NCBI GenBank assembly: GCA_028534125.1
Contig: CM052816.1
Span: 8,372,001 to 8,436,000, forward strand
Direction: 5' to 3'
DNA: 64,000 bases
Origin: Lama glama
Lineage: Eukaryota
A program made the translations under genes and the position numbers. Numbering within the stretch: position 1 is the first letter of the stretch; each line of letters opens with the position of its first letter. The notes beneath the pieces are model-generated. The model saw only the letters and a program-made list of their open reading frames with translations, was not told the DNA's origin and did no database searches. Shown here in pieces: positions 60 through 49,100 of this stretch.

Positions 60-470
60 CCCACACACTGTTGGCTGGAGCGCACATTTGCACAGCCTTT
101 TTTGGAGGGCAGTTTAACAGTACCTCCACATTTTGATGTACCTGCTCTTTGACTCAGCAATCCCTCCTCTGGGAATGGACTCCGCTCACATGAGGGCACA
201 CATGCACGATGGCTTGTGTGAGGATGTTCACCGTAGCATTGTTTACAGTGGAGAAAAATCAAGAAACTAAAGTGTCCATTAAGTAGAGGGATGGTAGGAA
301 AAAATTGTGGCACATCCCTGTCATGAAGACAGCGTAGCAATTAAAAAACAAGGAGGTAGGTCTCCATGTACACACGTGGAAAGACTTCTAAGATGTGTGG
401 TCAAGTGATAAAACTCAAGCCCCTAGTGCAATAAATAGCATATGACACTATCTTTAGGAACCATAATGTA
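60..470 (+). mobile_element. Old L1 (L1M/L1ME-like) 3' fragment
   Basis: tttgactcagcaatccct...aggatgttcaccgtagcattgtt...aagtgtccatt resembles the L1M ORF2 end and 3' UTR. Confidence 0.6.
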
Positions 471-874
471 TGGCTGAATGGACGGATGGATAGATACACG
501 AGCATGTAGGTGCGTGAGCAAACGTCGGGCAGGGTACACTGTACCCACAATTCTTCCTGGAGGTTTTTGTTGGGAAAGGGGCTGTGTGGTTGGGAGGATT
601 TTGGGGGAACTCCCACTTGGGGAAAACAGATCCTTCTTCATGTATGAATATCTTACAGTGAGCACTGCAGGAGCAAGGAGGACAAAGGAACGGTGGTGGG
701 AGGGGATTCCTGCGACTACCGCCATCTGCCTGGGTCCTGTAACTGCTGGTGGCCGACGAGAGAGCCTGTGAATTGCCTCTGCTGTTCATTTCTTTCCAAA
801 TGCCCTCTTTTCCTTCCCTGCCTCTGCCTGGCAAAATCCAACCCTCCCCAGGCCTGGCACTTGCCCCAGCTCAA

Positions 875-1125
875 TTTATTATTTAGCTTTTGCTGCATAG
901 CAAACAAACAAAACTCCCACAAAACCAAGACAATAATAAACATTTATTTCTCACGCATCTACCCCGTATGCAGCTGATCTGGTTGGACGCAGCGGGGTTC
1001 ACTCATGCATCTACAGGGCAGCGGGGGACTGCTCCAGGCTGGGTTTAGCAGACGTACCTCGGCTGGCGCAGCTGTTTCACATGCTTTTCATCCTTTTAGG
1101 ACCAACGAGCCAGCTCAGTGATGTT
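875..1125. mobile_element. MaLR (MLT1-like) LTR fragment
   Basis: ttagcttttgctgcatagcaaac...aaacatttatttctcac...ttcactcatgcatct resembles recalled MLT1 sequence. Confidence 0.55.
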
Positions 1126-1137
1126 AGAAGCATATTC

Positions 1138-1505
1138 TTGTGTCTTTCAAAGGATTTGTCCATCTTATCCAACTTGTTTAAGTTCTGTGCCTAGAGTTGT
1201 TCATGGCATTCCCTTATTATCCTTTTAATGTCCATAGGGTTGGTGGTGATGTCCACTCTTTCATTCCTGATATTTGTAACTTGCATCTTTTCTTCTGATA
1301 TTTGTAACTTGCATCTTTTCTTTTTCCCTTGGATATTTTATTTACTTTTCAATGAAACAGCTCTTAGCTTTACTAATTTTTTCTCTAACATTTTCTGGAT
1401 TTCATTCATTTCTGCTGTTGTCTTTATTTCCTTCCTCATAGTTGCTATGTGTTTAATTTGTTCTTTTTCTAGTTTCTTACGGCGGAAGTTCAGATCACGG
1501 ATTAT
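1138..1505 (-). mobile_element. L1 ORF2 fragment
   Basis: The - strand translates as RDLNFRRKKLEKEQIK...RKEIKTTAEMNEIQ, the L1 ORF2 post-endonuclease region. Contains a perfect 28-bp tandem duplication at 1267-1322. Confidence 0.85.
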
Positions 1506-1509
1506 TTTT

Positions 1510-4059
1510 TCCTGCAGTCTCTGGCAGAGTGTGGACCCTCGCCGCAGACCCTGAGTGGCCACCTAGACCTACTTGTGTGGAGGGTCAGCTGTCAGGGTCC
1601 TGCTTCCCCACCACAGCGCCCCAGGCTCCTTGGTGCTCCTTAGACACATCAGGTGTCTTTGGGGTGCATAACCTTGTTACAATGCACCTGTGTCTAAATC
1701 CTCTAATAATCTCATCAGGATTGTAGAGTCCCATCCTAAGGGAGACAGTATAAAAGGTTATAGCCACTGAGGTGCTCAAACGATTGGATTAGCATCCCAC
1801 ATCCTGGCTTAGAGCCTTATGCCTTTGGATTTTTTTCTTCGTCTATGTTTGTCTACTGTATCATTTGTTAGGATTGGCTAATACGGGTTGGTTCCTGGAT
1901 GACTGCAGCAGAGCTTTATGGAACTTGATATTAATGAGGATCCTCTGACTCAGGAGATAAAAGACGTTGCTCTCTGACTAGGAAGCTTGTCTTATAGAGG
2001 TGTCAGGAGTTTTCTTTCACCTGCGCCCAATATGATTACTTGATGGTATTGATACAGGTGTGTACTATTAATGAAACCAGCCCTGATTACTGTGTTGGGG
2101 TGAGAGGGTAAAGCAAGAAAATTCTCCACCAGAGAAGGACACCGCCTGCTTGGGTTAAAGGAATTTTATACAATTGGACACATTTTGGCTTTTCCTCATT
2201 GAGAATTTTAACTCTCTTTTGTTTGAGCCAAAGCAGCATGGAGTTAGCACTGAACTGCTTTTAAGTATGTGTGTGTGTGTGTATATATGTGTATATATTT
2301 TTTTTAAGTTTGCTGGGAGGAACAAGCATTGGTGGCGATGCTAAAGGCCATGGGCTACGTGCAGGGCTTGGGCCGAATGCATTCTGCCTGGAAACTCCCT
2401 AGACATTGAGATCAGCTTGTCTGTGATACCTGCTGGGAAGATCAAATATTTTGGTCATCGGCCAGGAAGATTAAACCCCAGCATGCTCAGAAAGGTAGTG
2501 AGGGCCGGGTGTTTCAACTCGTTTCTCCTGAATTCCTCTCTCAAGCTGAGCTCTGACTGCGTCTCAGCCTCCACACTTTGATTTCTTCAAGGTGATAGAG
2601 TTTCTTCTTCCACCTGCCTCCTCAGCAGGTAAGTTTTGCAAGATGGTGAGCGAGACAGGGCGTGGACTCCCCTAAGCCCTCTGCAATAGCAAGCCTGCCT
2701 TCAGCTCACGGGGGAAAACTACCAGGAGCCTCTGACCAAATTGGCTACAGTCTTGGCAGCTGGGCAGCATGAGTGACTTTCAGGCTACGGTTCTCGACAA
2801 CCTTCTCTAATGGGAAACTTCTTGGTGTTCCCTAACGAAACCTTTAAATCCAAGCTCGTCATCTTTGAGACTGTCTGCTCTCCTCCATGGCTCCTCCGGG
2901 GAATCCTTAAAGCCAAGTTGTGGACAGTCACTACTGCATTTGCTTGCATCCTTCCGGAAGGCAAACTTAGGAGATGGAATTGGTTCCACCATCCTAGGTT
3001 TGCTTTCTCATGCGTCTTAAGTCTGTTTGATTTCCCTCTGCTTTTGGTGGGGGGTGATGCAAGGCCGTTTTCTAGGGATCCGCACTCCACAGACTATTCT
3101 CAGCTCTTGGGTTTGAAACCTGGGATATTGACTAAGCCTTTGACTTAGGGGTTGCTTCCTTGCACTCTCTCCAGACCTCCATTCTCGGGGCGGGGGAGGG
3201 GGCAGCCAACCCCTCAGAACCAGCATTAAGGTGGAGTAGTTGAGGGGGGAGGTGGCTAGTGTGCCCAGGTGCTTCCTACAAAGGAACAAAGTGCGCTCTG
3301 AGCCGCAGATTGGCAAACCCTGGTGCTTTCCTTCATCTCGCGGGAACTCAAGTGTTTCCAGGCGCAGCCAACATCGCCACATCCCACAAACCCCGAGCTT
3401 CTGATAAGAGCGCTGGTTGACGTCGGGCCCAACCCATAAAGCCTGGGAAGAGGCAGCAGGAGCTTGCTAAAGGCAGTTGTTCCTGGCTTTTTTGTGTTTT
3501 TGCTGGCGAAGGAGTAAACTTACCTTGAGCGCTGCAGTGGGAGAAACCCAGTCAGCCAACTGCAGAGCTCAGCTTCACTAAGGGCTTGTTTTTCTTCAGG
3601 GGATGGACGCCCAGATGGAGAATTCTTCACTGTCCTACCGTCAGCTCTGTCTCACGCTGTGGTCATTGACTTTCGTCAGATCGAGTAGTCAGGTACAACG
3701 TTTGACCGTGACTTGTTTTTCTAAGTTATTTTGCAGAAGAGATGTACAATTATGGGTCAGAGGGAAGACCCTCAGGAAAAGTCAGTCTTGCCTGAGTCAG
3801 AACCTAATGATTTTGACTGACTACAGTGGGTGCCTCCCACCATTCTCCATGCGTCGTGAAGCGGGGGATCCCTGTGAGTCGCCCCGGAGTCTTCCTCCAA
3901 CAATTCCCCTGGAGCTACAGCTCTAGCCCCAGGCCTGTACCCAATTCAGCCGAGGGGGTGCCCTGCCTCAGGCAGGGCGACATCCACTGAGACGATTTCC
4001 CACAGGTCTAGATGACCGGGGTCCACCCAGGGTTTTCGTATGTGTACCCTCCCCCTTTT
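1510..4059 (+). mobile_element. Probable ERV leader/gag remnant (unresolved)
   Basis: Lies directly 5' of the pro-pol remnant. Only a weak gag-like word (LFCRR, ~3727) was seen; no clear ORF, PBS or 5' LTR. Confidence 0.4.
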
Positions 4060-5917: not shown

Positions 5918-8248
5918 TGGAGGAGGAGAATTACTGGGTCACGGGGTAATTCTGTGTTTAACTTTTTGAAGAACTATCAAACTGATTACCACAGCAGCGG
6001 CATCATTTTACCTTCTCACCAGCAATGTACAAGGGTTCCAATTTTTCCACATCGTTGCTGACACTTAGTATTTTCTGGGTTATTTATTATGGCTAACCTA
6101 GTTGGTGTGAGGCAGTATCTCATTGTAGTTTTGATTCGCCTTTGCCTGATGACTAATGATGTTGAGCATTTTTTCATGTGCTTGTTGATCATTTGTATGT
6201 CTCTTTTGGAGAAATACCTATTCCATTTTTTTACTCACTCTTAAATTGAGTATTTGTCTCTGTTGAATTATAGGATATGTGTATATATAGTCTAGATACT
6301 TAACTCTCGTATATATGGTTTGCAAATATTTTCTTGCATTCTGTGTGCTGTCTTTATTCTCTTGATAGTGTTCTTTGCACCAAAATGTTTAATTTTGATA
6401 AAGTCCAATTTACTTTTTTTTCCCTTTGGTTGCTCGTGCTTTCGGTGACACAGCTATGAGACCATTTCCAAGTTGTGGTCATGAATATTTACCCCTATGC
6501 TTTCTTCTATGCATCTTATAGTTTTAGCCTTGATATTTAGATCTTTGATCCATTTTGACTTAATTTTTGTATGGTGTGAAGTAAGGGTCCAACTTCATTC
6601 TTCTGTATGCGGGTATCCAGTTCTCTTAACACCAGTTGTTGAAAAGACTGCTTTTTCCCCATTGAATGGCTTTGACTCCCTTGTTGAAAGTCAATTGACC
6701 TTAGATATGAAGGTTTATTTCTGCAGTCTCAAGTTTATTCTGTTGATGTATGTATCTGTGCTTACGCCAACACCATGCTGTGGTCGATTTCTGTAGCTTT
6801 GTAGTAAGTTTTGAAATTAGGAAGTGTAACCCCGATTTTGCTCTTTTTCAGGATTGATTTGGTTATTGGGCATCTCTTGAAATTCCATATGATCTTGAGA
6901 ATCAGCTTTTCCATTTCCGCAGTGAAGGCTATTGGGGTTTTGATAGGTACTGTATTAAATCTATAGATCACTTTGGGGAGTTTTGCCTTTTTTATAATAA
7001 ATCTTCCAATCTATGAAAAGAAATGTCTTTCCACTTGTTGAGTCTTCTTAATTTCTTTCAGCGATGTGCTGTGGTTTTCAGTGTATATGTCTTGGATTCA
7101 TTTTGATGCCATTGCAAATAAAATTATTTTTTTAATTTCCTTTTTCCTTGTTTTTTTAATTTCCTTGTTCACTGCTAGTGTATAGAAATAAGCTTGAGCT
7201 TTGTGTGTTGATCTTACATCCTGTACCTTTGCTGGATACATTTATTAGCTCTAATAGATTTGGGGGTTTTAATTGGTTTTTTTGTTTTGTTTTGTTTTAT
7301 AGATTCTTTAGGATTTTTCTGTATATAGGATTATGTCATCTGTGAAGAGAGAATAGTTTGACTTTTTAATTTGGATGCTTTTTATTTCTTTTTCTTCATG
7401 ATTGCCCTGACTAGAACCTCCAGTACCATGTTGAATATAATGGGTGAGAGCAGGCATCCTTGCCTTATTACTGATCTAAGGGTGGAGGTGGGAAGAGGAA
7501 GCTTTTAGTCTTTTATCATTGAGCTAGCTGTGAGCTTTTTTATGTATGTCCTTGATCATGTTGAAGATGTCCTTTTTTTTTTAAGTAGGTTTATTTATTT
7601 AGTTATTCTTAGAAAGAGGTACTGGGGATTGAATCCAGGACCTCATGCACGCATGCTAAGCATGTGCTCTACCACTTGAGCTATAACCTCCCCCCAAGAA
7701 TGTTCCTTCTTATTCCTAGTCTTTTGCATGTTTTATCATGAAAGTATGTTAGACTTTGTCAAAGGGTTTTTTCTGCATCAATTAAGATGATCATGTGGGA
7801 TTTTTGTTGTTCTGCTGATGTGGTGTACTAGATTGATTTTTCATGTGTTGAACCATCTTTGCATTTCTGGGGTAAATCCCACTTGGTCATGGTGTATAAT
7901 CACTTTAATATACTGTTGGGTTGGGTTTGCTAATATTTTATTGAATACATTTGCGTCTATGTTCATAAAGGATACTGGTCTGTAGTTTTCTTGTGATGTT
8001 CTTGTCTGTCCATTGGTATCAAGATAATGCTGGCCTCATAGAATGAATTTAGAAATGTTCCCTCATCTTCTATTTTTTGAATGAGTTTGAGAAGGATTGG
8101 GGCTAATTCTTTAAATATCTGGGAGAATTCACCAGTGAAACTCTTTGGTCCTGGGCTTTTCTTTTTTGGGAAGCTTTTGATTATTGATTCAATCTCTTTG
8201 CTAGTTATAGGTCTAGTTAGTTTGTTTCTTGAGTCAATTTTGGTTGGT
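5918..8248 (-). mobile_element. L1 (L1MA/L1MB-like) ORF2 3' half, antisense
   Basis: The - strand gives [13 protein letters not shown]...LILKIIWN...[11 protein letters not shown] (L1 ORF2); flanks show typical antisense L1 sequence. Confidence 0.92.
7573..7695 (-). mobile_element. Vic-1-like tRNA-derived SINE inserted in the L1
   Basis: gaggtactggggattgaatccaggacc...gctaagcatgtgctctaccac; T-rich tail; approximate target-site duplication aaga(a)tgt(t)cct. Confidence 0.85.
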
Positions 8249-8559
8249 ATTTATGATTACTAAAGGTTAAAAATACTTCCTGAAAAAATGTTTATAAAAA
8301 ATATATATCTAAGCAGATGGAAAGAATGATCATTTTTCTGGATCAATGTTCTATTGGAATTTTTTTGGTTTCAAGAAGTAACTGACAACCATGTTAATAG
8401 AAATACAAAGAAAAACACTAAAAGAATAAACTGAAAGGGGTGAAAGCAATTGCCTCTAGAAAAGGAGGGGAGAGAGAAATGCCAGTTTTCTTAAGAAATA
8501 TAGTAGCACAACTAGAGTCGCTCTGAAAATAAACAAATGTAATTAATCCACAGAAAGGC

Positions 8560-9239: not shown

Positions 9240-20037
<10,798 letters not shown>

Positions 20038-20682
20038 GGAGGTGACGACGGAAGCACTGCCTCTCCCCTCCTCCAAGCTTCAACTCCTCCATGGATGGGG
20101 CACCATGTGGAGAAAAAAGACTCTGCCCTTAATCATTTCAGCCCAGTTCTGAAACTCAGGGCCACGGGATCCATGGGAGATGGGAGAGGATCCCACTTCC
20201 AGGGCCTGAGCCATCACTGCCAGTCAGGGGCTGGGGCTGAGCCCCGCCCTTTCCCCCAGTTCTCAATGCTGTGGCCTCATGTTTGCTATGACAACTGGGG
20301 TAACACCCAGCTCACTCTTAACCTGTTCCCACTTCCAGGAGTAACCTTCCCTACTTCCCTCCTGTCTCGATGGAAAAGGACTGGTTTTGTGCCTATGACG
20401 TCCCCAGGAGCAGCCTTGGAGCAGAAACCCCTCCTTTGTAAGAATCTAATTGTCCCGCTCTGCCCTCTACCCTTCTCTCCACAGCCCCACCCAGGGTCTG
20501 GTACCACTGCAATGAGCCAGGTGGCAGCTAAAAGCTTGGGGTGTTCTGCCCGGTCCCCTGTCATTCTGAGCTGGAAGGCAGGGGACCCATGTGGCTGGCC
20601 ACACCAAGCAAGCAGCACACACTCCCTCACGTTGACTTAGACTCATCATAACTAACAATCACGCTGTGGGAGGTCTGTCGGC

Positions 20683-20688
20683 ATTAAA
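20683..20688 (+). terminator. CSF1R poly(A) signal (ATTAAA)
   Basis: gcATTAAActaac about 650 nt after the stop, followed by a T/GT-rich tract near 20716. Confidence 0.7.
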
Positions 20689-20852
20689 CTAACCACATTA
20701 ACTCAGCTGGCCTCTGGTTTTTTGTGCCACCTGAGAGCCTGCGGCTTCCCTGTGACCGACCGTCCCAGGACCACAGGAGGCCCAGCACACAGCTCTACTC
20801 AGTAAGGATGGAACTGACTCTTGCTGCACCACAACCAGATAATTTAATAAAC

Positions 20853-20858
20853 TTTATT
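20853..20858 (-). terminator. HMGXB3 poly(A) signal (AATAAA on the - strand)
   Basis: TTTATT on the + strand about 840 nt beyond the HMGXB3 stop; first canonical signal seen in the 3' UTR. Confidence 0.65.
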
Positions 20859-21695
20859 CTGGTCGGGGGAAGAGGGAGGGGAAAAAAGCCACCGATTCCA
20901 CTCCTCTCAATAAATTAAATAACACGGCCAATTCCCGTGCCCTAAGCAAACCCTGGGCACTTGAGCCAGTCCCGCTGTTTCCTTACAGCCCAGTCTGCTT
21001 CCCCTTCACAGAAGGGAGTTTCTCCTACTGCCGCCAGGTTATGTCATACTCAAGGGCCACATCCCCTCTGTGGTGAGGGTCCAGGGCCCAGAGGATGTAG
21101 GCGGCAGTGGCCAGGGAGTGGAGGAGAGGATCCTCTTCCTCAAAGCTCAGGGCGGAGAGGACAGTCCTGGAAGAGAGCCCGAGCTCACGGTTTCTCCCAC
21201 CTCCACTTCCCCCAGATGTAGGTGCAGGAGGAACAGGAGGAAAATCCAATCCTCCTCTGGGAGAATCAAGAACCCAAAGGGACCCCCCTGGGCTAATAAA
21301 GCCCCCAAGTCTTGCCTTAGTCAAAGGTAAGAGACCACAGGGGCTTGAAACTGGGTGGGAAGGGAAACTTCCACAACCTTGGTGCACCCAGGACCTCCAC
21401 CCCGACCCCAACTGCACCCCAGGCAGTCAGCAGCTCCCAGCCTCCCCTCTCCTCCAATCTCCTCTGCTGAACGTATGGTGCCCCCTCAAGTGCACTCTCG
21501 GGGTAAGGAGTGTCCCGGTGCCTCTCCTGACGCCCGGAAGGTTGAGACCAAGGACCCCAGGCCCCACAGTGCTCAGGAAATGGAAGCTCTTTGGTCAGTC
21601 CCAGCGTAAGAGGCCGGTCCCCTAGACAGATCTAACTCGGGCAAGGGCCTCACTATGGCTTGAGAGATGGTGCGGTTCCTGTACGAGAGCCTGGC

Positions 21696-22163
21696 TTATT
21701 CTGTGGCTGTGGCCCCCTCCTCTTCCTCACCATCCTCTTCCGTCTCTGTCTTGATCTGAGCAACCCCAAGGCGGTAGAGGGTGTCACGGATGACCACCTC
21801 ACCAGGCTGGCAGCTCTGCACAATGTCGTGGATCTGCCGGTTGACAATCTCACGGCTGGTGAGGAAGTCCATGAGGCGGTTGTAGAGGTAATAGTGGGTC
21901 GCGTTGTCAAAGGCAATGGGCCGCCGGCGGACGCTGTTTGTTCTGCTATCTGCAATGGAGGCCAAGATGGTGGCATAGGGTGCCAACTCAGGACACAGGG
22001 CCAAGGAGTGATGCCCAGCACTGGGGTCACCAGGACTGGGCTGTGTGCCTGCATGGACAATGCGCCGTGTGGCAGTCTTGGTGACTGGGTGCTGGACAGA
22101 GTGTTCAGCCTCTGTGATGTCCACGGTATAATGCTGGTCCGAGAGTTCTGGGCAGGACATGCT
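21696..22163 (-). CDS. HMGXB3: HMGXB3 last coding exon
   Basis: tctag| [15 protein letters not shown]...[17 protein letters not shown]...ATATE TAA; 468 nt. Confidence 0.95.
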   Translation of the reverse strand, partial: SMSCPELSDQHYTVDITEAEHSVQHPVTKTATRRIVHAGTQPSPGDPSAGHHSLALCPELAPYATILASIADSRTNSVRRRPIAFDNATHYYLYNRLMDFLTSREIVNRQIHDIVQSCQPGEVVIRDTLYRLGVAQIKTETEEDGEEEEGATATE

Positions 22164-25100
22164 CTAGAAGGGAGGTAACAAGCCACTGTGACACAAGGGA
22201 ACTGCTAAGACAGGAGCTGTGTGGTAGGTGAGAGTGAAGGCTATGGGCTACGCCAGCGGTGTTTAAACCTTCCTGTCAGCATAAAGCATCAATAAAGTAT
22301 AAACTTGCTGTCACCACAGAGCATACATACATAAAGCAAATAAAATCTCATGTGCCGGAACCCTATGGACCAAGGTAAGCCTGCTGGGTTCGGGTTTCCA
22401 CTCCGGAAAGAGCTCCTCTCCTCAAAGCCCCTCAAATCTCCAATCCCTCAAATCTCTTCTCTCCTATCCTCTTTTCCTCAAATCTCCACTCACTCCTCAA
22501 ATCCCCTCTCCCCTCAAATTTCCAATCCCTCTCATCTCCTCTCCCCTCCTCCAATCCCCTCTCAATTTCCATCAAGTCTCGTCAAATCTCCTCTCCTGAA
22601 ATCTCTCCTCTCCTCCAATTCCCTCTCCTCAGTTTCAATCAAACCTCAACTCCCCTCTCCAATCTCCTCTCCTCAAAGCCCCTCAAATCTCCTATTCTAG
22701 CCTCTCTTCCTCAAATCTCCTCCTCAAATCCCCTCTCCTCCAATCTCCTCAAACTTCCTGTCCTTTTCCTCAAATCAAATCTCCACTCACTCAATTCCCT
22801 CTCCTCCTTCAATCCCCTCTCAATTTCCATCAAGTCTCCTGTCTTCAAATCTCCCCTCTCATCTCCTAATTTCCTCCAATCTCCTCTCCTCAGTTTCAAT
22901 CAAATCTCAAATCTCTTATCCTAATTTCCTCAAATCTCCACTCACTCCTCCAATCTCCTCTCTCCTCCTCCCTCTGAAATCTTCTCTCCTCAAATCCCCT
23001 CTCATCTCTCAAATTTCCTCCAATCGCCTCTCCTCGGTTTCAATCAAATCTCAAATCTCCTGTCTTCAACTCTCCTCAAATCCCCTCTCCTCTCTCCTCC
23101 AATCTCCTCAAATCTTCTGTCCTCTTTTCCGCAAATCTCCACTCACTCCTTAAGTTCCATCTCCTCCAATCCCTCTCATCTCCTCTCCCCTCCTCAAATC
23201 CCCTCAATTTCCATCAAGTCTCTTCAAATCTCCTCCAGTCTCCTCTCCTCAAATCCCGTCCTCTCCTCCAATCACCTCCAATCTCCTCTCCTCAGTTTCA
23301 ATCAAATCTCCACAAATCCCCTTCTTCTCTCCAATCTCCAATTCCTCAACTCTCTTCTCTTCTATCCTCTTTTCCTCAAATCTCCACTTACTCCTCACGT
23401 TCCCTCTTTTCCTCCAATCTCAATTTCCATCAAGTCTCTTCAAATCTCCTGTCTTCAAATCTCCAATCTCCTCAAACCCCTCAAATCTCCTTTTATCCTC
23501 TTTTCCTCAAATCTCCACTTGCTCCTCAAACCCCTCCAATCCCCTCTGCTCAGTTTCAATCATATCTCCTCAAATCCCCTCTCCTCTCTCTTCCAATCTC
23601 CTCTCCTCAAAGCCCCTGAAATACCCTCTCCTCCAATCTCAAATCTCCTGTCTCTTTTCCTGAAATCCCCTCTTTTCCTTAAATCTCTCCTCTCCTCTCT
23701 CCTCTCCTTAAATCCCCTCTAATCCCTTTTCATCTCCTCTCTCAATCTCCTCTCCTCCAATCCCCTCAAATCTCCATTCACTCCTCAAATCTCCTCTCGA
23801 AATCATGTCCTCTCCTCCAAACCCCTCCAATCTCCTCTAATATCCTCTACTCTCCTCAAATCTCCTCTCCGGAAATCTCTCCTCACCTCTAATCCCGTCC
23901 TCTCCTCCAATCCCCTCTCCTCAGTTTCAATCAAATCTCCTCTCTCATCCTATTTTCCTCAAATCTCCACTTGCTCCTCCAAATCTCCTCCCCTCTCCTG
24001 TCTCCTCTCTCCTCCTCCCTCTGAAATCTTCTCTCCTCAAATCCCCTCCAATCTCCTCTCATCTCCTCTCTCAAATTTCCTCCAATCTCCTCTTCTCGGT
24101 TTCAGTCAAATCTCAAATCTCCTGTCTTCAAATCTCCTCAAATCCCCTCTCCTCCAATCTCCTCAAATCTTCTGTCCTCTTTTCCTCAAATCTCCACTCA
24201 CTCAAGTTCTATCTCCTCCACTCCCTCTCATCTCCTCTCCCCTCCTCCAATCCCCTCAATTTCCATCAAGTCTCTTCAAATCTCCTCCAATCTCCTCTCC
24301 AATTCCCTCTCCTCAGTTTCAATCAAATTTCCTCAAATCCCTTTCTTCTCTCCAATCTCCTCAAATCTCCAATTCCTCAACTCTCTTCTCTTCTATCCTC
24401 TTTTCCTCAAATCTCCACTCACTCAATTCCCCTCCAATCTCTTCTCATCTTCTCTCCTCCAGTCCCGTCTCCTCAGTTTCAATCATATCTATCTCCTCTC
24501 CTTAAGCCCCTCAAATCCCCTCTCCTCCAACCTCCTGTCCGTTTTTCCTCAAATCTCCTCCAATCCCCTCTCAAATTTCCATCAAGTCTCCTCAAATCTC
24601 CCCTCCTCCAATCTCCTCAAATCTCTTCTATCCTCTTTTCTTCAAATCTCCACTCGCTCCTCAATTCCCCTCTCCTCTTTTCCTCAAATCTCCTCCAATC
24701 CCCTCTCAATTTCCATCAAGTCTCCTCAAATCTCTTGTCTTCAAATCTCCTCCAACCATTCAAATCTCCTCTCTGGAAATCTCTCCTCACCTCAAATCCC
24801 GTCCTCTCCTCCAAACCCCTCTAATCTCCTCTACTCTCCTCCAACCTCCTCTCCACAGTTTCAATCAAATCTCCTCACATCCCCTCTCCTCAAAGCCCCT
24901 CAAATCTCCACTCATCTCCTCTCTCCTCCTCCCTCTGAAATCTTCTCTCAAATCCCCTCTAATCTCCTATCATCTCGTCTCTCAAATTTCCTCCAATCTC
25001 CTCTCCTCAAAGCCCCTCTCCTCTAATCTCCTGAAATTTCCTGTCCTCTTTTCCTCAAATCTCCTCCAATCCCTCAAATCTCTTCTCTCCTATCCTTTTC

Positions 25101-28100
25101 ATCACATCTGCACTCACCTCAATTTCCATCAAGTCTCCTCAAATCTGCTGACTTCAAATCTTCTCCCCTCTCCTCTTATCCTCAAATCTCCTCTCCCCTC
25201 CTCCAATCCCCTCTCAATTTCAATTGTCTCCTCAAATGTCCTGTCATCTAATCTCCTCCCCTCTCCTCTTTTCCTCCAATCTCCTCAAACCCATCAAATC
25301 TCCTCTCCTGAAATCTCCAGTCTCCTCCTCAAAGCCCCTCCAATTTCCTATTCTATCCTCTTTTCCTCAAACCTCCACTCACTCTTCAATTCCCCTCTCC
25401 TCTTTTCCGCAAATCTCCTCTCCCCTCAAATCTCCTCCCCTTTCCTCTTTTCCTCCAATCTCCTCAAACCCCTCAAATCTCCTCTCCGGAAATCTCTCCT
25501 CTCCTCAAATCCCGTCCTCTCCTCCAATCGCCTCCAATCTCCTCTCCTCAAAGCCCCTGAAATCCCTTCTCCTCCAATCTCCTGTCTCTTTTCCTCAAAT
25601 CTCCACTCACTCCTGAAATCCTCTTTTCCTTAAATCTCTCATCTTCTCTCCTTAAATCCCCTCTACTCTCTTTTCACCTCCTCTCTCAATCTCCTCTCCT
25701 CCAATCCCCTCTCCTCAAAGCCCCTCAAATCTCCACTCACTCCTCAAATCTCCTCTCCTGAAATCTCTCCTCTTGAAATCCCGTCCTCTCCTCCAATCTC
25801 CTCTCCTCAAATCCCTCCAATCCCCTCTCTGTCTCCTCTCCTCCAGTCCCCTCTCCTCAGTTTCAATCATATCTCGTCTTCAAATCCCCTCTCCTCCAAT
25901 CTCCTGTCTCCTCTTATCTTCTCTCCTTAAATCCCCTCTAATCTCTTTTCATCTCCTCTCTCAATCTCCTCTCCTCCAATCCCCTCTCCTCTCTCCAAAC
26001 TCCTCTCCTCAAAGCCGCTCTAATCTCTCCTCACCTCTAATCCCGTCCTCTCCTCCAATCGCCTCCAATCCCCTCTCCTCAAATCTCTTCTCTCCTATCC
26101 TCTTTTCCTCAAATCCCCTCTCCCCTGAAATCTCCTTCAGTTCCTCTCATCTCCTCTCTCCTCCTCCAATCCCCTCTCAATTTCAATTGTCTCCTCAAAT
26201 GTCCTGTCTTCTAATCTCCTCCCCTCTCCTCTTTTCCTCCAAACTCCTGAAATCTCTCCTCTCCTCCAATCCCCTCCAATCTCATCAAATCTTCTCCCCT
26301 CCAATCAAGTCAAATCTCAAATCTCCTCTCCAGTCCTCCAATCTCCTCTCCTTTCTTTGTCTCCTCAAATTTCTCATCAAATCCCCTCCTCAAATATCTT
26401 CTCCTCCCTCTTCTCTTCCTCCAAAAGGAACTCACCACAGGTGGCTCAGTCGGGCTAGAGAAACAGCCCTGATTCCTCCCCCACATCTGGTTGGTCAGCT
26501 CTGGGTAGCAGAGGTCAGCACAGAGGGCTACTGGCGCGGCCATGTCTACCACATACACAGGCGGCCAATGACGGGAAGAGACGAGCAGATCCACGTGGTC
26601 GAGGGCACTCTCGCCCCGCACCAGATACTTGGAGCCACAGACCACCTGGCAGGGAGATGTACACACAGCACAGAGTGAGAAGCCAATCTTCAAAGTTAAG
26701 TTCACTACTTCGTTACTACGAAGATGAACAAGCAGGATTCATGACTGAAGCTGTGGCAATCCTACCTGAGCCCATGGAATTCAGCTTCCCTCCTACTTCT
26801 CTCACTAAACGAAGTCGCCAGCTCATTTCTGCACTCCAGCCAGAAGAGCTGGGAGCATCCAATCCTCAGCTGAGTCTCAAAGTCTCTGCTCCCCAACCTC
26901 TGGAATCTGCTCCAACCCCCACCCTGCACCATCTAAGCCCAATGGTTCCCAAGGTGCACAGCACCAGCAGTTAAGATCAGGTTAAAAATGGAGGTATTCC
27001 AAATCTAAGGAATGAGGCTTTGGGGGTGGAGTCCAAGCAGCTCCCCAGCAGACTCTGATGTGCTGTCCACATGGGCACCCCTGATGTAGGCTACACCTCC
27101 ACTGACAGAACGCCACTCAAATGCTGGGTAGCTGTGTGGACACTGGAAAACTGCCTCTACCTTCCTCCACATCTACCAGTCATGACTGTCGCCTCCAAGT
27201 AACACTGCCACCCCAGCACAGCCCCAAGTCCTAGAGCTCTCATGTCCCTGTGTTGTCAAGTGCTTCGCATGAGCAGGACTTCCGTCACATGAACACAATG
27301 TTCAGAGCACGCTCTGACCTGCCAGGGTAGAGGCATCAAGCATGACCCTCAGACTCAGCTTCTGGTAAAGGGGTTGACCACCTGACTCTCGACAGCCAGT
27401 CGCCTTGCCCACTCACACACCTCCATGAACTGAAGGCTCTGCGAAGCCATCTCCCCAGCTTAGTACTTGTTCAGAGGTTTTTCTACCCTGGCCTCTCCCC
27501 AGGTCAGGACGACTCTGTCCCTTTCCAGAATTATCCTGGCTCCTACACTGTGCATTCAACAGATGTAAGCAGTGATCTGCCTAAAAAACCAAAATCAGAC
27601 ACTTCCCATTCAAACCATCCAATGGGCCCCTCATCACTCTCAGAAGAAAATCCATAAGGAGCTACTCCACAGCTGCCCACTGACCTAAGTGCAACTCCCA
27701 GAACAAGCAAGATCAGATCCTCTGCGTGTGGGCAAAGCGACATGAATAAGTCCACCCCGAGCTCCTCCTCATTACCCTCTTACCTGATGGGGGCAAACCT
27801 TGTAGATTTTACCCCCTGTGAGATGAGGTGGGGGCTGTCTAGCTCTGGCTCCATTCTGTACAGATTCATAGAGAGCCAACAAGGAGAAGCAGAGCTGGTC
27901 CTAGAGCAGAAGGACAAGATTAAACACAGCAGTAAATGCTGAGGGACGAGGCCTGGTACACACCACCAAACGCTCAAAGGAAGACAATCAACTATGAAGG
28001 CCAGAGTGGGCCTTGGAGCCACACCAGCCCAATATCCTCTAGGTAGAGATAGAGGCCCTGAAAGGACCAGGTCACAGAAAGAGCCAGCCAGCCTGACCAA

Positions 28101-40100: not shown

Positions 40101-43100
40101 CTCGGCTTCTCTACCAGTAAAATCAGAGGATTACACACACCTCTTGGTAATGGTTTCAAGAGTCAGCTCCCGCTCACCAAGTTAAGGAGTTGGAGGATAA
40201 CAGATCAGGATTTCAATACCAGATATGCCATGAAAAGCTGTACATGTGTCACCCAAAGCTATCTGCTTAATCTTTATGAGCCTCAATTTCCTCAACTATG
40301 AAATGGAGGATCAAAGTACTAGTAATCTCTTAGAGCTGTTGTAAAGTAACAAGAGATTGCAAGTGAAGCACTTACTATGCAACAAAAACTCTATAAATGG
40401 TAGTTTGGGTATATAATCAGGTACCTGTACAGCTTGAAGCTTTTATCTTTAACATTGTGTGGCTTCTGGGTACAAGGCAACTTTGTACACCAGAGGCTTC
40501 CAGGAACAAGGCTCTGAAATGCTCACTGAAACAGGTCCTTCTCAGGTGGGTCCCTTTCCAATGGAGGTTTCTCCCTGATCCCTTGTGCAAATGCGGCATC
40601 AATCACTCCCTCCCTTGTGCTCCCAGAGTCCATTCCTTTACTGTAGATTTCAATGTCTCAGTTGGTAAACCATGGTCTCCTTCCCTGCTTATTTACTGAT
40701 TCCCAACGCCAGCATGTGGGCACACAGAAGATGCTAATTCTTATTTGCAGGACACATATTATACGCTACTTTGTACAAGTTAATAGCTTAATAACAAGGA
40801 GCTTTCTATAACCGTATACCCACAACAACTCTTGCCTCACTGTCTGTAACAACTTGGTTACTTTTCTCCCATACTAGACTGTAAGAGGGAAGGGGCTATG
40901 TTCTTTTCATCTTTGTATCACCAAATGCCTGACCCACAGTAGGTATTCAATACATGCTCACTGAAAGAATGAATGAGTGGCTGCAGAAGAGATAACTGAT
41001 ATTAGAACAAGTTGCCCTGGGAGGTTGTGTGTTCCTAGTCATGACTATGATAAACCATGGGCTGGAACATAAGTTGGCAGGCACGTTATCCTTTGGCTCT
41101 GAGCTGAAGATGGAAGATGGAAAGGATGCAAGACTGTTCCAGCCTAGAGAGGTTTCAGTCATAATTACAGCCACTGACAACAAACTGCACAGGAAATGTA
41201 TGGCCATCAGGGGGCTCCAAAGAGTCAGGCAATTTCTAACCAGTATTTTGTTTTGCGGCAAATAGTAATTACATTTTATTTCTCTAAAATTTAGAAAATT
41301 GGAAAGTGAGCAAATATCTGAAGATGAAGGTCATGGGGGTAGGCAGTTAACAGTGAGCCAAAGATAGAAGAATATAAATAAGAATGGGATCTGAAATCAA
41401 TTGGCAAGAGGTCCCTAGATAATTCCTGTCTGACCTGGAAAGTTAAGTCACCTCATCACCCCAGATCTGGAGTCTAACACCCATTTGCACACTGTAAGCC
41501 ACATCAACAGCCACAATGAAACAGGAGAAAGGACTGTTCAGAGCATCTTCCTACACAGAACTCAATTTCACCTGATAATTATTGATCAACACATTGTATA
41601 CGCAAGCTCCAGGGTTAGAAGTTTGGAGGAAACAGATACACCTGCCCTACAAGGGATCACAGTTTCATGGAGAGCTAAGAGGGACTCAAGACAGGGTGTG
41701 GTCAATGCTATGCGAAGGGAAGCACATTTAAGGCGTGGAGAAAGCAGGAGGAAAGCTCGCTGCCAGCAGAGGTCACCTGGTGCAACAACAGAATCTGATG
41801 AAAGGTATGGAACCATTTCACAAGCCATTTCAGAGGTTTACAGACTCCCCTGTGCTCAACTCTGAGTCTTCTCTAGGGCTCAAGGCCATGAGAATAAAAC
41901 GCCCAGACCTAATCCACCTTGCCTGCCTTGTTTTATTGATGGGGAATCTAAAACTCAGGAGAGGGAAAGCGAGCACTTCTCTCTCCAGCAGGTCCCTCAA
42001 TTCCTAGGCTCAGGGTTTTTTCCACTAAGCCATCAGAGTCCACATACTTTGGTTCCACTTCCCTTTTCCATAAGGATGACCACCTCAGAACACCACCTCA
42101 ACCACAGAAACAGACCTGAAGACCAAAGGGTGAGATTCATCTGCCAGAAATCCCCTCTCCTCCGTATGCAAAGAAAACTTCTCTCTCCCCACCTCTCTAG
42201 ACCCGTCCACTCAAACCCTGGAAGTCTCCCTCCTGACATAACCTTCTGGGTCTCTCCCTGACTCATGGACATTCAGTGTGACCCCACTGTCTAAAAAACA
42301 GTCTAGTGTTAGCACTAAAGATCTTTCATTATGTGGCCCCAACATGCCTTTGAAGCCTTCTTTTCCATACTCCTCCGCATACACTCTCTCTTCTAACCAA
42401 ATGGAACACCGGACTCCCTAACGCTTCCCTTTTGCTCGTGAGTGTCCTTGAGTACGGCACGTCTCCCCCTTCCACCCAAATCCTGTCCATCTTGCAACAT
42501 CCAGGTTAAATCTGGATCCTGACCTGTTTCGCGTGCCATCGTCTTTCCTCCCAGGGCAGAGGAGTGGGATCTCTCTTCTCACCCTCATCCTAGTCTTTCT
42601 GTTTGTTGTCACAGGTGCTGTATCTTTCTGTTCACTTAAAAAACCTCACGTGGAAACTAAGAGGACCTCTGAAAATGCCAAGCCTTCCCAGTTCTAATAA
42701 GTAAACAAACAAACAAAAAAACGAGCCCTAAGGAGCCAAGAGGAATGTGTTTTACTATCCAGTTTGGTCTGGCTTCAGGAGCAGGTCTGCCAAGACTGCT
42801 TGAAGTAAAGCCCTGTGGTTCGCCAACGCTCTGCAAGGAACCTGAGAAGTTGCAGTCTAATCTACAAAGTCTTGAGGTTGGCACTCTCTATCAAAACAGT
42901 ACTTACAGGGACTCCACCAGCCTCAGAGCTAAAAGGATGTAACCCTTCTACCTCTCTCTTCCTCAGAACCCTCTTTAAGTCCCATCTTGTCTAGTTTGGG
43001 GGGTTTTTTTTTTGTTTGTTTGTTTTTTTTGGCACGGGGAGGGGGGTGTGTGTGAATGAACTCTTGGTCCACTGAGCTAGAAGGTTCTCAGATATCAAGG

Positions 43101-46100: not shown

Positions 46101-49100
46101 TATATGTTGACTGGGCTCTAATGTAAAAATGTGTTTCTTACTGAGGGTCATGGTCAGAAAAGTGCTGATTTAGGGAATTTTGATCGTTAACTCTTCCAGC
46201 CACATATGGCAAAAGAACTAAAAAAGAAAAAAAACACACTAATCATAAATGTGCTTGAATACATGCAACTCTGACACCTGGGAAATCTTTAATAACTCTA
46301 TCATTAAATGGAATGAACTGCACTGGTTAAAACCCGGTACATGGAATAACAGCCATGCTTTTAGGTTTAAAAAATTATATTTAAAAAATAAACACACACA
46401 AATGCAGGAAAAAGACTTGAAGGCTGAATGAGCACACACCAAACTGTCAATAATAGTTATTTCTGGGAGGCAGGATGGATCACAAGGAATTTATTTTCTT
46501 TCTGCCTTACCTAAATTTTCTATATTTTCTACAACGATACATTCACTTTTTAAAAATGACGGCTAAGGAGACAGGACAACTAAATGCAGTATCTAATCCT
46601 AGACTGGACCCTGCATTGGAGTAGAGAATGCTTTAAAGGACATAACTGAGTAAAAGATGACAAAACTGAAATACAAATGATAAAGTAGCATATCAATGTT
46701 TCAGTAACAGAATCTCTCTATTCTTTGGAAATTCACATTGAAGCATTAAAAAATAAAGTCATGTTACTTACCCTAAAATTATGTGTATTTTATACATACA
46801 CACATACACACACCCAATAGGGAAGACACACGAGCACAAATAATGCAAAACAGGCTAACATGTTAACAACAGGTGACTAAGTAAAGAGTACATGAGTGCT
46901 CTTTGTACTGTTCTTATTCTTGCAACTTTTTTTTGTTTTAAATTATTTCCAAATAAAAGTTCACAAACATGCACTCATTTTTACAACAAGGAAAGGAAAT
47001 TAATTAAAAAATAGATAACTCATTCATGCTAAACCTCCTCCCAGAGTTCTACCAGTCTAAGAATAGGCTTTTTGCCTATGGCTTTGAGACCCTCAATGGA
47101 GGCCCTGTTCTCGGAGCAGCCAGGCCCCCCGGACAGCTCCCCCTCTGTGGAATAGGTCTTACCTTCACCTCACCAGTGTTAGATGGCTGTTGGATGGGCT
47201 GGCCCAACTGCTTCAGCGTGCTTGGCTTCAGGCCACAAGTCCTCACAGAGGGAGTCTTATCTGAGACAACCAGGAGCCAAACTGGTGACTTAAGTGCATT
47301 CAGAGTCTCCCTAAGTCTCTCATCTCCATGCTCAACCCCCACTCCTGCCCCCTTCCCATTAGACAGCCCCTCCTCCCAGGTCTGTCCCAGCCCTTACCAC
47401 TCAGGGGGAAGGCCTGCCTGGCCCTGGGCAGTCCCATGCTGCTGCCTCGGCCCACATTAGCTGGAGCTGGCAGAATTGCTCTCATGGGTCTTGCTGCAGC
47501 CAGTAATGAGGGCTTGCCCCGTGCTCTGCCTTTAAGCTCTGGGGCTCTGGGCCCAGGGGTGAGCACGTCAACTCTGGAAAAAAAAAAAGGGGGGGGGACT
47601 CTCTTAGAAATTCCAGACTAAGGAGAAGAAAACCAAAGCACTATCTTCAGATAGAACTTTATTAGAGGAACAGTGTCTTGATTCAACTGTCAAGTTAACT
47701 GTCAGCTATCTAAGGCTTTAGATATACTGGGTTAAAATTAAACCATTAAGTAGCTGTGTAACCCTGAACAAGAATTTCATTCTGTTTACCTCAAGTTTCT
47801 AACATGCAAAATAGGACAGTAATTACATGTACTTCATGGGGTCATTATGAAGATAAAAAAGTGCAAAACAGTGCCTACAGTGAAGAACATCAACTGCTAT
47901 TGTAGTTATAACATCTAACCTGCCTCTAATCAGCCCGAGTATTTCAAGTGTAAAGTCTCCCACATGAGGGCAGCTAAGAGACCCTGGAGGATGAGGTCCA
48001 TGTCTTCTTCATCTTTGCACCTCCAGTGTTGAGGGTAAAGCCTGCATCACAGAAGGCCTCAAAATATATTTGTTAAAGTGATTCATGTGCCCAAAACAAA
48101 AGGTCTAAAGTGCATGGCTTCATTCTCTAAGGACACAGAATCATCTCAAAGTATATTGTTAAATTTAAAAAAGACAGGATGTTGTTACGTATGTTAACAC
48201 TTCCATTTATGTAAAGAAAGTAGGGAAATACACACACACACACAAGTATATACATACACATCTGACTCTTGAACAGCATGTATTAGGGGCACTGACCCCT
48301 GTACAAAGTCTGTAACCTCAGTTAGCCCTCCATAGCGGAGGGGCCGCACCGTGTGGATTCAACTAACAGCAGATCGTGTAGTGCTGTAGTATTTACTGGG
48401 GATAACACCCCCAAGTGTAATGGACCTCTGCAGTTCAAATTCGTGTTTGTTCAAGAGTCAACTGTGTAAGTATACACTTGTGTGTGTATATATTTCCCTA
48501 CCTTTCTTTACACAAATGGAGGAGTAACATACATAACTGAACATTCTATCTTTTTAAATTTAACATTATTTGTATACAAACACACCCATTTGTTTGAATA
48601 TGCTTAAAAATATCTCTAGAAACACAGAAAGTTGGGAATATTGCGGAAATGGGAAAGGAGCACTGAAGGATGGGATAGAAAGGACATTTTTGCGGGGGGG
48701 GGATTTCCTTACACCTTTCAAGTTTGAAACATGTGAATATATTGTCTATTTAACAACAAAAATCTTTTAAATCACCATAATGTAAATGAGAATTTTATTT
48801 TGGGCCAAATAACTGTCCACTGCAGGGGGCTGGGCTGCACACTGTGGGACGTTTAGCAGCAGCCCTGGCCTCTACCCACTTAGCGCCAGCAGCACTCCCT
48901 CCCCAAATTTTATCAACCAAAAATGTCTCTAAGCATTACCACGATGTCCCCTGGGGCAAAAGTGTTCCCCACTGAAAACCAATGATATGAACAAATAAGA
49001 GCCTTAAATCATAAGTCTTCTGGGAAGGGGCTACATGGAGAATTCAGTCAAGCATTTAAGGAGAGAAAGCCTTTAAGGCGAGGAGGAAAAATAGCCCTCT

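What the first reader, a model, noticed from the sequence alone, without database searches (positions are those of the whole stretch)
22411..26422. 4-kb strand-asymmetric pentamer array filling the last intron of HMGXB3
Seen in sequence: about 4 kb built from a few ~5-nt words (CTCCT, CCCCT, TTCCT, CAAAT, CCAAT) with very little G on the + strand. It occupies nearly all of the 4.27-kb intron (22164-26435) and begins about 13 nt after the donor of the penultimate exon. HMGXB3 is transcribed from the - strand, so the pre-mRNA carries ~4 kb of AGGAG/AGGGG/AUUUG. Established: G-rich RNA over a C-rich template favours R-loops, as in the pentameric Ig switch regions; polypurine/polypyrimidine tracts can form H-DNA; GGAGA and GGG motifs bind SR proteins and hnRNP H/F. 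Inference: a lineage-specific expansion that could affect splicing, pausing or termination where HMGXB3 and CSF1R converge. I do not recognise it as a named repeat family.
Basis: partly seen in the sequence, partly recalled or inferred. Interest (0 to 1): 0.7.

Follow-up and report, generated by a model that had tools for sequence, protein, structure and literature searches.

The report
Camelid pentamer repeat in HMGXB3 intron
Camels and their South American relatives carry a real 4-kb patchwork repeat in the last intron of the HMGXB3 gene, apparently grown in place from a short piece of the same gene; the gene still looks intact, so it is probably a tolerated repeat rather than a regulator.

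Summary
Observation confirmed. 22411-26422 has 2.8% G on +, a 5-nt beat, and starts 13 nt after the donor of the last HMGXB3 intron. It is a mosaic of 45-100-bp modules, with no fixed higher-order period. It is not an artefact: 14 runs from 8 studies hold 76-81% of the intron's 31-mers. It looks camelid-specific. A dromedary gene model runs into the same array start. None of 17 other mammal-like read-through translations does, and their intron start is missing from this window's non-repeat remnant. New: a 22-nt run of the commonest words sits about 950 bp away in the gene's own 3' UTR. It is longer than any of 60 nulls and lies in colinear ancestral sequence, so it is a candidate seed. R-loop potential is predicted, but AID hotspots, G4 motifs and excess H-DNA mirrors are absent, so it is not a switch region. 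The last exon is conserved normally. Splicing, length polymorphism and copies elsewhere are untested. The scan had no look-alike on other DNA (26, 29, 30). Verdict: a tolerated, lineage-specific variant-repeat minisatellite.

The parts
22411..26422 (-). Variant-pentamer array (GAGGA/GATTT/GAGGG/GATTG and rarer words), a mosaic of 45-100-bp modules
22164..26435 (-). Last intron of HMGXB3, 4272 bp, GT-AG
   Evidence: open frame across the junction
26436..26645 (-). Penultimate HMGXB3 exon (70 codons)
26416..26435 (-). First ~20 nt of the intron, homologous to the intron start of other mammals and ending in a GAGGA word; the array's left junction in transcript orientation
   Evidence: first ~7 read-through codons alike in most other mammal-like translations
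22164..22410 (-). Non-repetitive 3' remnant of the intron with the acceptor; no detectable homology to intron positions ~+22 to +310 of other mammals
   Evidence: 0 of 12 above control maximum; positive control 8 of 11 above, 2 tied, 1 below
21696..22163 (-). Coding part of the last HMGXB3 exon, intact (155 aa)
21443..21464 (-). 22-nt stretch of the HMGXB3 3' UTR identical to the array (GAGGA GATTG GAGGA GAGGG GA); candidate seed or conversion tract
22729..22750 (-). Exact copy 1 of the UTR 22-mer inside the array
24143..24164 (-). Exact copy 2 of the UTR 22-mer inside the array
22872..23248 (+). Largest internal duplication, partner 23903-24300 (410 columns, 85%, offset 1031)
20853..20858 (-). 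AATAAA, probable HMGXB3 poly(A) signal (inferred)
20683..20688 (+). ATTAAA, probable CSF1R poly(A) signal (inferred from spacing like the human 162-bp gap)

Best explanation
A camelid-lineage, variant-repeat (complex) minisatellite that arose in place in the last HMGXB3 intron and is tolerated because it is spliced out. Shown: real sequence; mosaic architecture; array start shared with dromedary; no such start in other mammals; ancestral 5' intron sequence missing; last exon conserved. Inferred: (1) after camelids split from other artiodactyls and before camels split from South American camelids (11-25 Myr, PMC13751797), a repair or template-switch event at an ancestral GAGGA about 15 nt into the intron replaced at least ~290 nt of the intron with a copy of a short purine-rich segment. 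The likeliest source is the 22-nt segment in the gene's own 3' UTR (about even odds; the alternatives are that the array later overwrote the UTR, or chance). (2) Slippage in 2-, 3- and 5-nt steps, point mutation and repeated out-of-register copying of 45-400-bp blocks expanded it to 4 kb. (3) Transcription of the G/A-rich strand probably forms intermittent R-loops that help keep the array turning over, a side effect and not a selected function.
For: Real: 14 runs (13 guessed DNA, 1 of unknown kind), 8 studies, 5 organism labels hold 0.76-0.81 of 427 sampled words; without the top holder, 13 runs and 7 studies. That implies at least 74-80% of array words are shared. Mosaic: 67 internal alignments at scattered offsets, none inverted; 5.4% mismatch over 6827 aligned columns, gaps mostly 1-3 nt. 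Camelid: the dromedary model P0034 matches 17 of the first 18 read-through codons; its tail is 0.65 R/K/E/G like the window's. 17 of 17 other mammal-like cluster representatives with tails of 19 or more residues are 0.12-0.24; one with a 7-residue tail was set aside. The fish-like locus L001 has a 222-bp, 16% G intron here. Replacement. Seed: a 22-nt exact match against a maximum of 17 in 60 null sets. The UTR is colinear with two orthologous UTR translations, with no insertion at the motif. Tolerated: the last-exon peptide is 90-93% identical to whale, horse, cattle, sheep, hippo and chimpanzee, which are 89-96% identical among themselves.
Against: No RNA or read-level data were obtained, so neutrality is inferred only from exon conservation. 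The outgroup translations see at most ~310 nt of the intron, so an array deeper in other mammals' introns is not excluded; no pig- or human-like read-through was among them, and their lineage labels are guesses from exon identity. The UTR motif differs from the two orthologues at 7 and 5 of 22 positions, more than the 10-12% elsewhere. That fits conversion from the array at least as well as a seed. Persistence of a strictly strand-biased array for over 11 Myr, with at least three quarters of its words shared among the holders, is also what weak selection would give. No whole genome was held, so single-locus status is unproven.
Confidence: 0.65

Rival explanations
1. A co-opted regulatory element. 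The array forms a long co-transcriptional R-loop or binds SR/hnRNP proteins, slows splicing of the last intron or 3'-end formation, and so tunes HMGXB3 and, through the known sense-antisense overlap, CSF1R.
For: 8 of 13 minus-strand R-loop-model hits in the window lie in the array, 4 with the maximal 2-kb elongation zone. The 15 most hybrid-favourable 500-nt windows of the minus strand all overlap it, and the benefit is orientation-specific: -0.21 vs +0.06 kcal/mol/bp. AGGAG repeats form R-loops in vitro (PMC3770058). There are 10 GTGAGT donor-like motifs against 0.2-0.6 expected. Human CSF1R and HMGXB3 regulate each other by read-through (PMC8370744).
Against: At most 2 consecutive perfect AGGAG units, against 22-28 in the tested substrates, and half the hybrid advantage of the pure repeat. 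The donor-like motifs are copies of one module, and most match U1 at only 5 of 11 positions. Human CSF1R read-through was mapped only to about the HMGXB3 stop codon, ~700 bp short of where the array would begin. Other mammals run the gene pair without this intron start. The last exon is conserved normally.
Confidence: 0.12
2. One array of a dispersed camelid low-complexity or satellite-like family inserted here from elsewhere; the UTR match is later conversion or chance.
For: The edges are sharp and ancestral intron sequence is lost, as for an insertion. Camelid satellites are incompletely catalogued: 6 of 20 candidate loci had no consensus. The UTR motif is more diverged from orthologues than its flanks.
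Against: No second copy in the other 60 kb apart from the 22-mer. A diagnostic motif is absent from the viral, metagenome and prokaryote contig collections; this is weak, since host DNA is rare there. No likeness to the visible first 400 nt of 14 alpaca satellite monomers. No terminal repeats or inverted structure.
Confidence: 0.13
3. An older array, present deeper in the intron of other mammals and only shifted next to the donor in camelids by a deletion.
For: Outgroup evidence covers only the first ~310 nt; loss of the ancestral 5' intron is shown.
Against: Internal copies differ by only ~5% on average. No protein-database translation resembles a 375-codon frame of the array at E<=1e-10 among 8000 candidates (a weak test for low-complexity sequence).
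Confidence: 0.07
4. An assembly artefact or badly mis-assembled repeat.
For: The window is a gapped assembly (500 N at 16432-16931, 100 N at 55860-55959). No run holds more than 0.81 of the words.
Against: 14 runs of 8 studies hold 0.76-0.81; a dromedary model has the same start; 3795 of 3982 31-mers are distinct, so short reads can span it. Local errors or allele differences could explain the missing fifth.
Confidence: 0.03

Closest known systems
Variant-repeat (complex) minisatellites / cryptically simple intronic VNTRs (class recalled)
   Same: Interspersed variant units, internal block duplications, kilobase length, intronic, lineage-restricted.
   Different: The unit is a vocabulary of GA-led pentamers shuffled in modules with no fixed period; a candidate source lies in the same gene's 3' UTR; length polymorphism was not shown here.
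Immunoglobulin switch regions, esp. mouse S-alpha with 28 tandem AGGAG (PMC3770058 part 1; PMC5485518 passages)
   Same: 2-12-kb size range, pentamer words, G-rich non-template strand with GGGG clusters, AGGAG as the commonest word, predicted orientation-dependent R-loops.
   Different: AGCT/WGCW AID hotspots at or below chance; no G4 motif; no long perfect AGGAG run; not in an IgH locus.
Mouse ESTR loci Ms6-hm and Hm-2 (units recalled; search listing only)
   Same: Kilobase arrays built on 4-5-nt G-rich units.
   Different: Those are near-homogeneous; this array never has more than two perfect units in a row.
Alpaca satellites VpaSat01-20 (PMC13751797, parts 1-3 of 8 and supplement)
   Same: Camelid-restricted tandem DNA.
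   Different: Those have 1.8-8.5-kb monomers in arrays visible by FISH; no likeness in the first 400 nt of the 14 monomers that could be seen.
MMBIR-type templated insertions (PMC8421209, listing and abstract start only)
   Same: A short nearby sequence copied into a break at microhomology with loss of flanking DNA; the proposed birth event.
   Different: Here inferred from a 22-nt relic after more than 11 Myr and followed by large expansion; the direction of copying is unresolved.

Membership tests
Ig switch region | 2-12 kb repetitive, G-rich and G-clustered non-template strand | tested here: met
   4 kb, 44% G, 68 GGGG runs on the transcribed-sense strand; definition from PMC5485518 legend
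Ig switch region | Dense WGCW/AGCT AID hotspots | tested here: not met
   AGCT 1 (3.4-3.6 expected), WGCW 6 (7.4-11.2 expected)
Ig switch region | Upstream of an IgH constant gene, with a germline promoter | tested here: not met
   lies in an HMGXB3 intron beside CSF1R
Ig switch region | R-loops in cells | not testable with these tools
   only predicted
ESTR locus | Long near-perfect run of one 4-6-nt unit | tested here: not met
   at most 2 consecutive AGGAG; 40 or more word types
ESTR locus | Very high germline mutation rate | not testable with these tools
   no pedigree or read-level data
Catalogued alpaca satellite DNA | Kilobase monomer repeated head to tail | tested here: not met
   no fixed period; offsets scattered from 93 to 3651
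Catalogued alpaca satellite DNA | Sequence match to a VpaSat monomer | tested here: inconclusive
   0 hits for 4 motifs, but cells are cut at 400 letters and 6 of 20 loci have no consensus
Variant-repeat minisatellite | Interspersed variant units with internal duplications | tested here: met
Variant-repeat minisatellite | Single locus | tested here: inconclusive
   no other copy in the window; no genome held
Variant-repeat minisatellite | Allelic length or structure variation | tested here: inconclusive
   the dromedary model departs after 18 codons, compatible with a 7-nt indel (inferred from protein); holders lack 19-24% of words for unknown reasons
H-DNA / G-quadruplex element | Long polypurine mirror repeats, or four close G3 runs | tested here: not met
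   20 mirror rows vs 1-41 in 16 simulations; G4 motifs 0 vs 2.3-4.7

The most novel reading that the evidence does not exclude
A 22-nt piece of HMGXB3's own 3' UTR was copied into its last intron and amplified into a 4-kb, switch-like R-loop platform without AID hotspots. Camelids have kept it for over 11 Myr because it meters last-intron splicing or 3'-end formation of HMGXB3, and thereby the antisense read-through that restrains CSF1R. This would be a gene-born repeat that became a lineage-specific control on the macrophage receptor.
Probability: 0.08. Interest if true: 0.72.

Novelty: new member of a known kind. Interest (0 to 1): 0.36.

Why it matters
If the seed reading holds, the locus keeps source, junction and product of a minisatellite's birth within 5 kb, which can be dated and ordered across seven living camelid species. 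It is also a natural test of whether a 4-kb G/A-rich tract next to a splice donor costs a gene anything. Practically, both Camelus GenBank models seen here lack the last exon, so the array may mislead assembly or annotation. Without a shown function it stays a curiosity of repeat evolution.

Tried and rejected
No whole genome was held, so the genome-wide copy search could not be run. No reads were laid on the locus, so retention, internal donor use and the places where other animals differ remain open.

Six RNA or guessed-RNA runs hold 0.05-0.13 of the intron's words. Three small runs labelled 'same sample' and one other small run hold 0.00, which is also no evidence.

Motif scans found 0 in viral, metagenome and prokaryote contigs. 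blastn against plasmids found nothing. Rfam gave only two tRNA-like SINE heads.

Coding by the + strand frames (up to 375 codons) is rejected: they follow from the lack of G, and no homologue scored E<=1e-10.

True loss of the last exon in camels is not accepted. 133 of 137 long HMGXB3 proteins in hand have it. The 4 without are both Camelus GenBank models, one macaque isoform and one pig isoform. Aberrant models are favoured as cluster representatives, the wild-camel tail does not map to the window, and the exon is intact here.

Exact look-ups of the last-exon and read-through peptides were not in the collection. The first protein-level test for ancestral intron sequence had little power and was replaced. 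CSF1R's UTR has a 17-nt match to the array (20060), within the null range, so it was not pursued.

Literature searches for HMGXB3 with intron/repeat, VNTR or camel, and for camelid satellites or purine-rich intronic repeats showed no description of this array in titles or abstract starts. Subscription papers are not covered. The human 3' UTR sequence was not found in the supplements of PMC8370744 (one file was not searched).
Full report
OBSERVATION. The stretch 22411-26422 is as described. It has 112 G in 4012 bases on the + strand and a skew near -0.87 with sharp edges. Autocorrelation peaks at lags 5, 10 and 15 (0.45, 0.48, 0.44 against 0.35) and fades by about lag 40. Joining 26436-26645 to 21696-22163 on the - strand gives one open HMGXB3 frame, which fixes the intron at 22164-26435; the array begins 13 nt after the donor. 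The host is a camelid. Two tRNA-like SINE heads resemble the camelid SINE (name Vic-1, recalled), and most exons are 94-100% identical to dromedary and wild-camel proteins where the alignment stays in the exon. The window differs from both at two or more internal sites where they agree, so a South American camelid is inferred.

ANATOMY. On the transcribed strand the array parses into 627 GA-led pentamers covering 78% (controls 71-73%); GAGGA, GATTT, GAGGG and GATTG account for 356. Above the words lies a second level. There are 67 internal alignments, mostly 45-145 columns at 83-98% identity, the largest 410 columns at 85%, at scattered offsets and none inverted. Repeats of 40 bp or more at 90% or more identity cover 73% of the array, against 0-26% in 15 Markov simulations of order 3-7. 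Mismatch averages 5.4% over 6827 columns and gaps are mostly 1-3 nt. No 60-mer is repeated, and TRF finds only short local arrays. This is a shuffled mosaic that has kept turning over, not a homogeneous microsatellite and not a fixed higher-order repeat.

REAL OR ARTEFACT. Fourteen of 24 listed runs, from 8 studies and 5 organism labels, hold 0.76-0.81 of 427 sampled 31-mers of the intron; dropping the best holder leaves 13 runs and 7 studies. The non-repeat part is only 6% of the query, so at least 74-80% of the array's words are shared. The missing fifth equals 0.7-0.9% divergence, or local assembly error; I could not tell which.

AGE. Gene calls on genomic contigs read through the donor and so reveal the start of this intron. 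A dromedary GenBank model (P0034) matches 17 of the first 18 read-through codons and then departs in a way compatible with a 7-nt indel of array words (inferred from protein). The array therefore predates the camel / South American split (11-25 Myr; PMC13751797, parts 1-3 of 8 read). Of 18 other mammal-like cluster representatives, 17 have tails of 19 residues or more. Most share the first ~7 codons, and all then run into ordinary sequence, with 0.12-0.24 R/K/E/G against 0.65 in both camelids. By exon identity they include cattle-, whale/horse/deer-, carnivore-, pangolin-, bat- and rodent-like animals; none is pig- or human-like. One cluster member with a 12-residue tail scored 0.36. A fish-like locus, L001, has a 222-bp AT-rich intron at this position. 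The outgroup tails do not align to the 247-bp non-repeat remnant: 0 of 12 exceed the control maximum, while the same test on the preceding intron passes in 8 of 11, ties in 2 and fails in 1. So the array replaced at least ~290 nt of ancestral intron. These tails see at most ~310 nt, so a deeper array in other mammals is not excluded.

A CANDIDATE SEED. Outside the array, the longest exact match to it in the window is 22 nt at 21443-21464 in the HMGXB3 3' UTR, on the same strand. Sixty local Markov-3 null sets gave 13-17. The motif is four array words in a row plus GA and occurs twice exactly in the array. Two translations of the orthologous UTR from unnamed mammals align colinearly over ~400 nt, with only a 1-nt gap at the motif, so it is not an inserted piece. 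It is, however, incompatible with them at 7 and 5 of 22 positions, against 10-12% overall. Either a diverged UTR segment was copied into the intron at the ancestral GAGGA near +15, or the array later overwrote a similar UTR segment. The first is my preference, at about even odds, because it explains where the GATTG word came from. Templated insertion at microhomology is a known process (PMC8421209, listing and abstract start only); its action here is inference.

STRUCTURE POTENTIAL. A script following the published R-loop sequence model (PMC3258121, passages) puts 8 of 13 minus-strand hits in the array, 4 with the maximal 2-kb elongation zone; the longest elsewhere is 232 nt on - and 590 nt on +. 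RNA:DNA hybrid advantage is -0.21 kcal/mol/bp as transcribed, +0.06 reversed, -0.04 for the median window and -0.43 for pure AGGAG. Pure AGGAG arrays of 22-28 units form orientation-dependent R-loops in vitro (PMC3770058, part 1 of 4), but this array never has more than two perfect units in a row. AGCT occurs once and WGCW six times, at or below chance; canonical G4 motifs are absent. Purine mirror tracts are not above controls. It may work like a switch region in forming R-loops, but it is not one (features from PMC5485518, passages).

FUNCTION. Retaining the intron would add 41 codons and a stop in place of the 155-residue last exon. That exon is 90-93% identical to six other mammals that are 89-96% identical among themselves; pig (80%) and a cat (85%) are similarly distant from all. 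Splicing across the array therefore evidently works well enough. Ten GTGAGT motifs (0.2-0.6 expected) are copies of one module, most with weak exon-side matches. In human cells CSF1R and HMGXB3 lie 162 bp apart and damp each other by read-through, mapped as far as about the HMGXB3 stop codon (PMC8370744, parts 1-2 of 6; its text never mentions an intron or repeat). The window has the same arrangement. The array is 1.55 kb upstream of HMGXB3's poly(A) signal and ~700 bp beyond that mapped read-through. No RNA evidence was obtained, so a quantitative effect remains open. Both Camelus GenBank models in hand lack the last exon; I read this as annotation or assembly failure, not biology.

KNOWN OR NEW. 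No match was seen in the visible parts of 14 alpaca satellite monomers (cells cut at 400 letters, figures unreadable). No description turned up in five literature searches, and no look-alike among the scan's earlier findings. It is best filed as an undescribed member of a known kind, a variant-repeat minisatellite, notable for its size, its position next to a donor and a possible source in the same gene. Interest 0.36.

Noticed in passing
window 16432-16931: A 500-N gap inside CSF1R; the exons flanking it jump from an early immunoglobulin-domain exon to the kinase insert, so many middle exons are missing from this assembly. A second gap of 100 N lies at 55860-55959.
   Followed up: no
window 20683-20688 (+), 20846-20858: Closely spaced convergent poly(A) signals; a + strand AATAAA at 20846 sits back to back with the - strand AATAAA ending at 20858 and could end CSF1R read-through transcripts.
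   Followed up: partly
window 26310-26435 (-): Read-through of the donor gives a 41-residue basic tail rich in R/K/E/G; a dromedary GenBank model (P0034) ends this way and a wild-camel model (P0154) also lacks the last exon.
   Followed up: partly
window 22250-22365: The non-repeat intron remnant has a stretch that looks like a relic of a hAT/MER DNA transposon (recalled impression; not tested).
   Followed up: no
window 7615-7690 and 10026-10097 (-), 56080-56178: tRNA-derived SINE copies of camelid type; the first is inserted in an L1-like fragment at about 7300-8300.
   Followed up: partly
window 20060-20076 and 42148-42163: 17-nt and 16-nt matches to the array (the first in the CSF1R 3' UTR), within the null range.
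   Followed up: yes
window 48153-48275 and 48448-48569: An inverted pair of about 125 bp at 84% identity inside an HMGXB3 intron, probably the ends of a DNA transposon relic.
   Followed up: no
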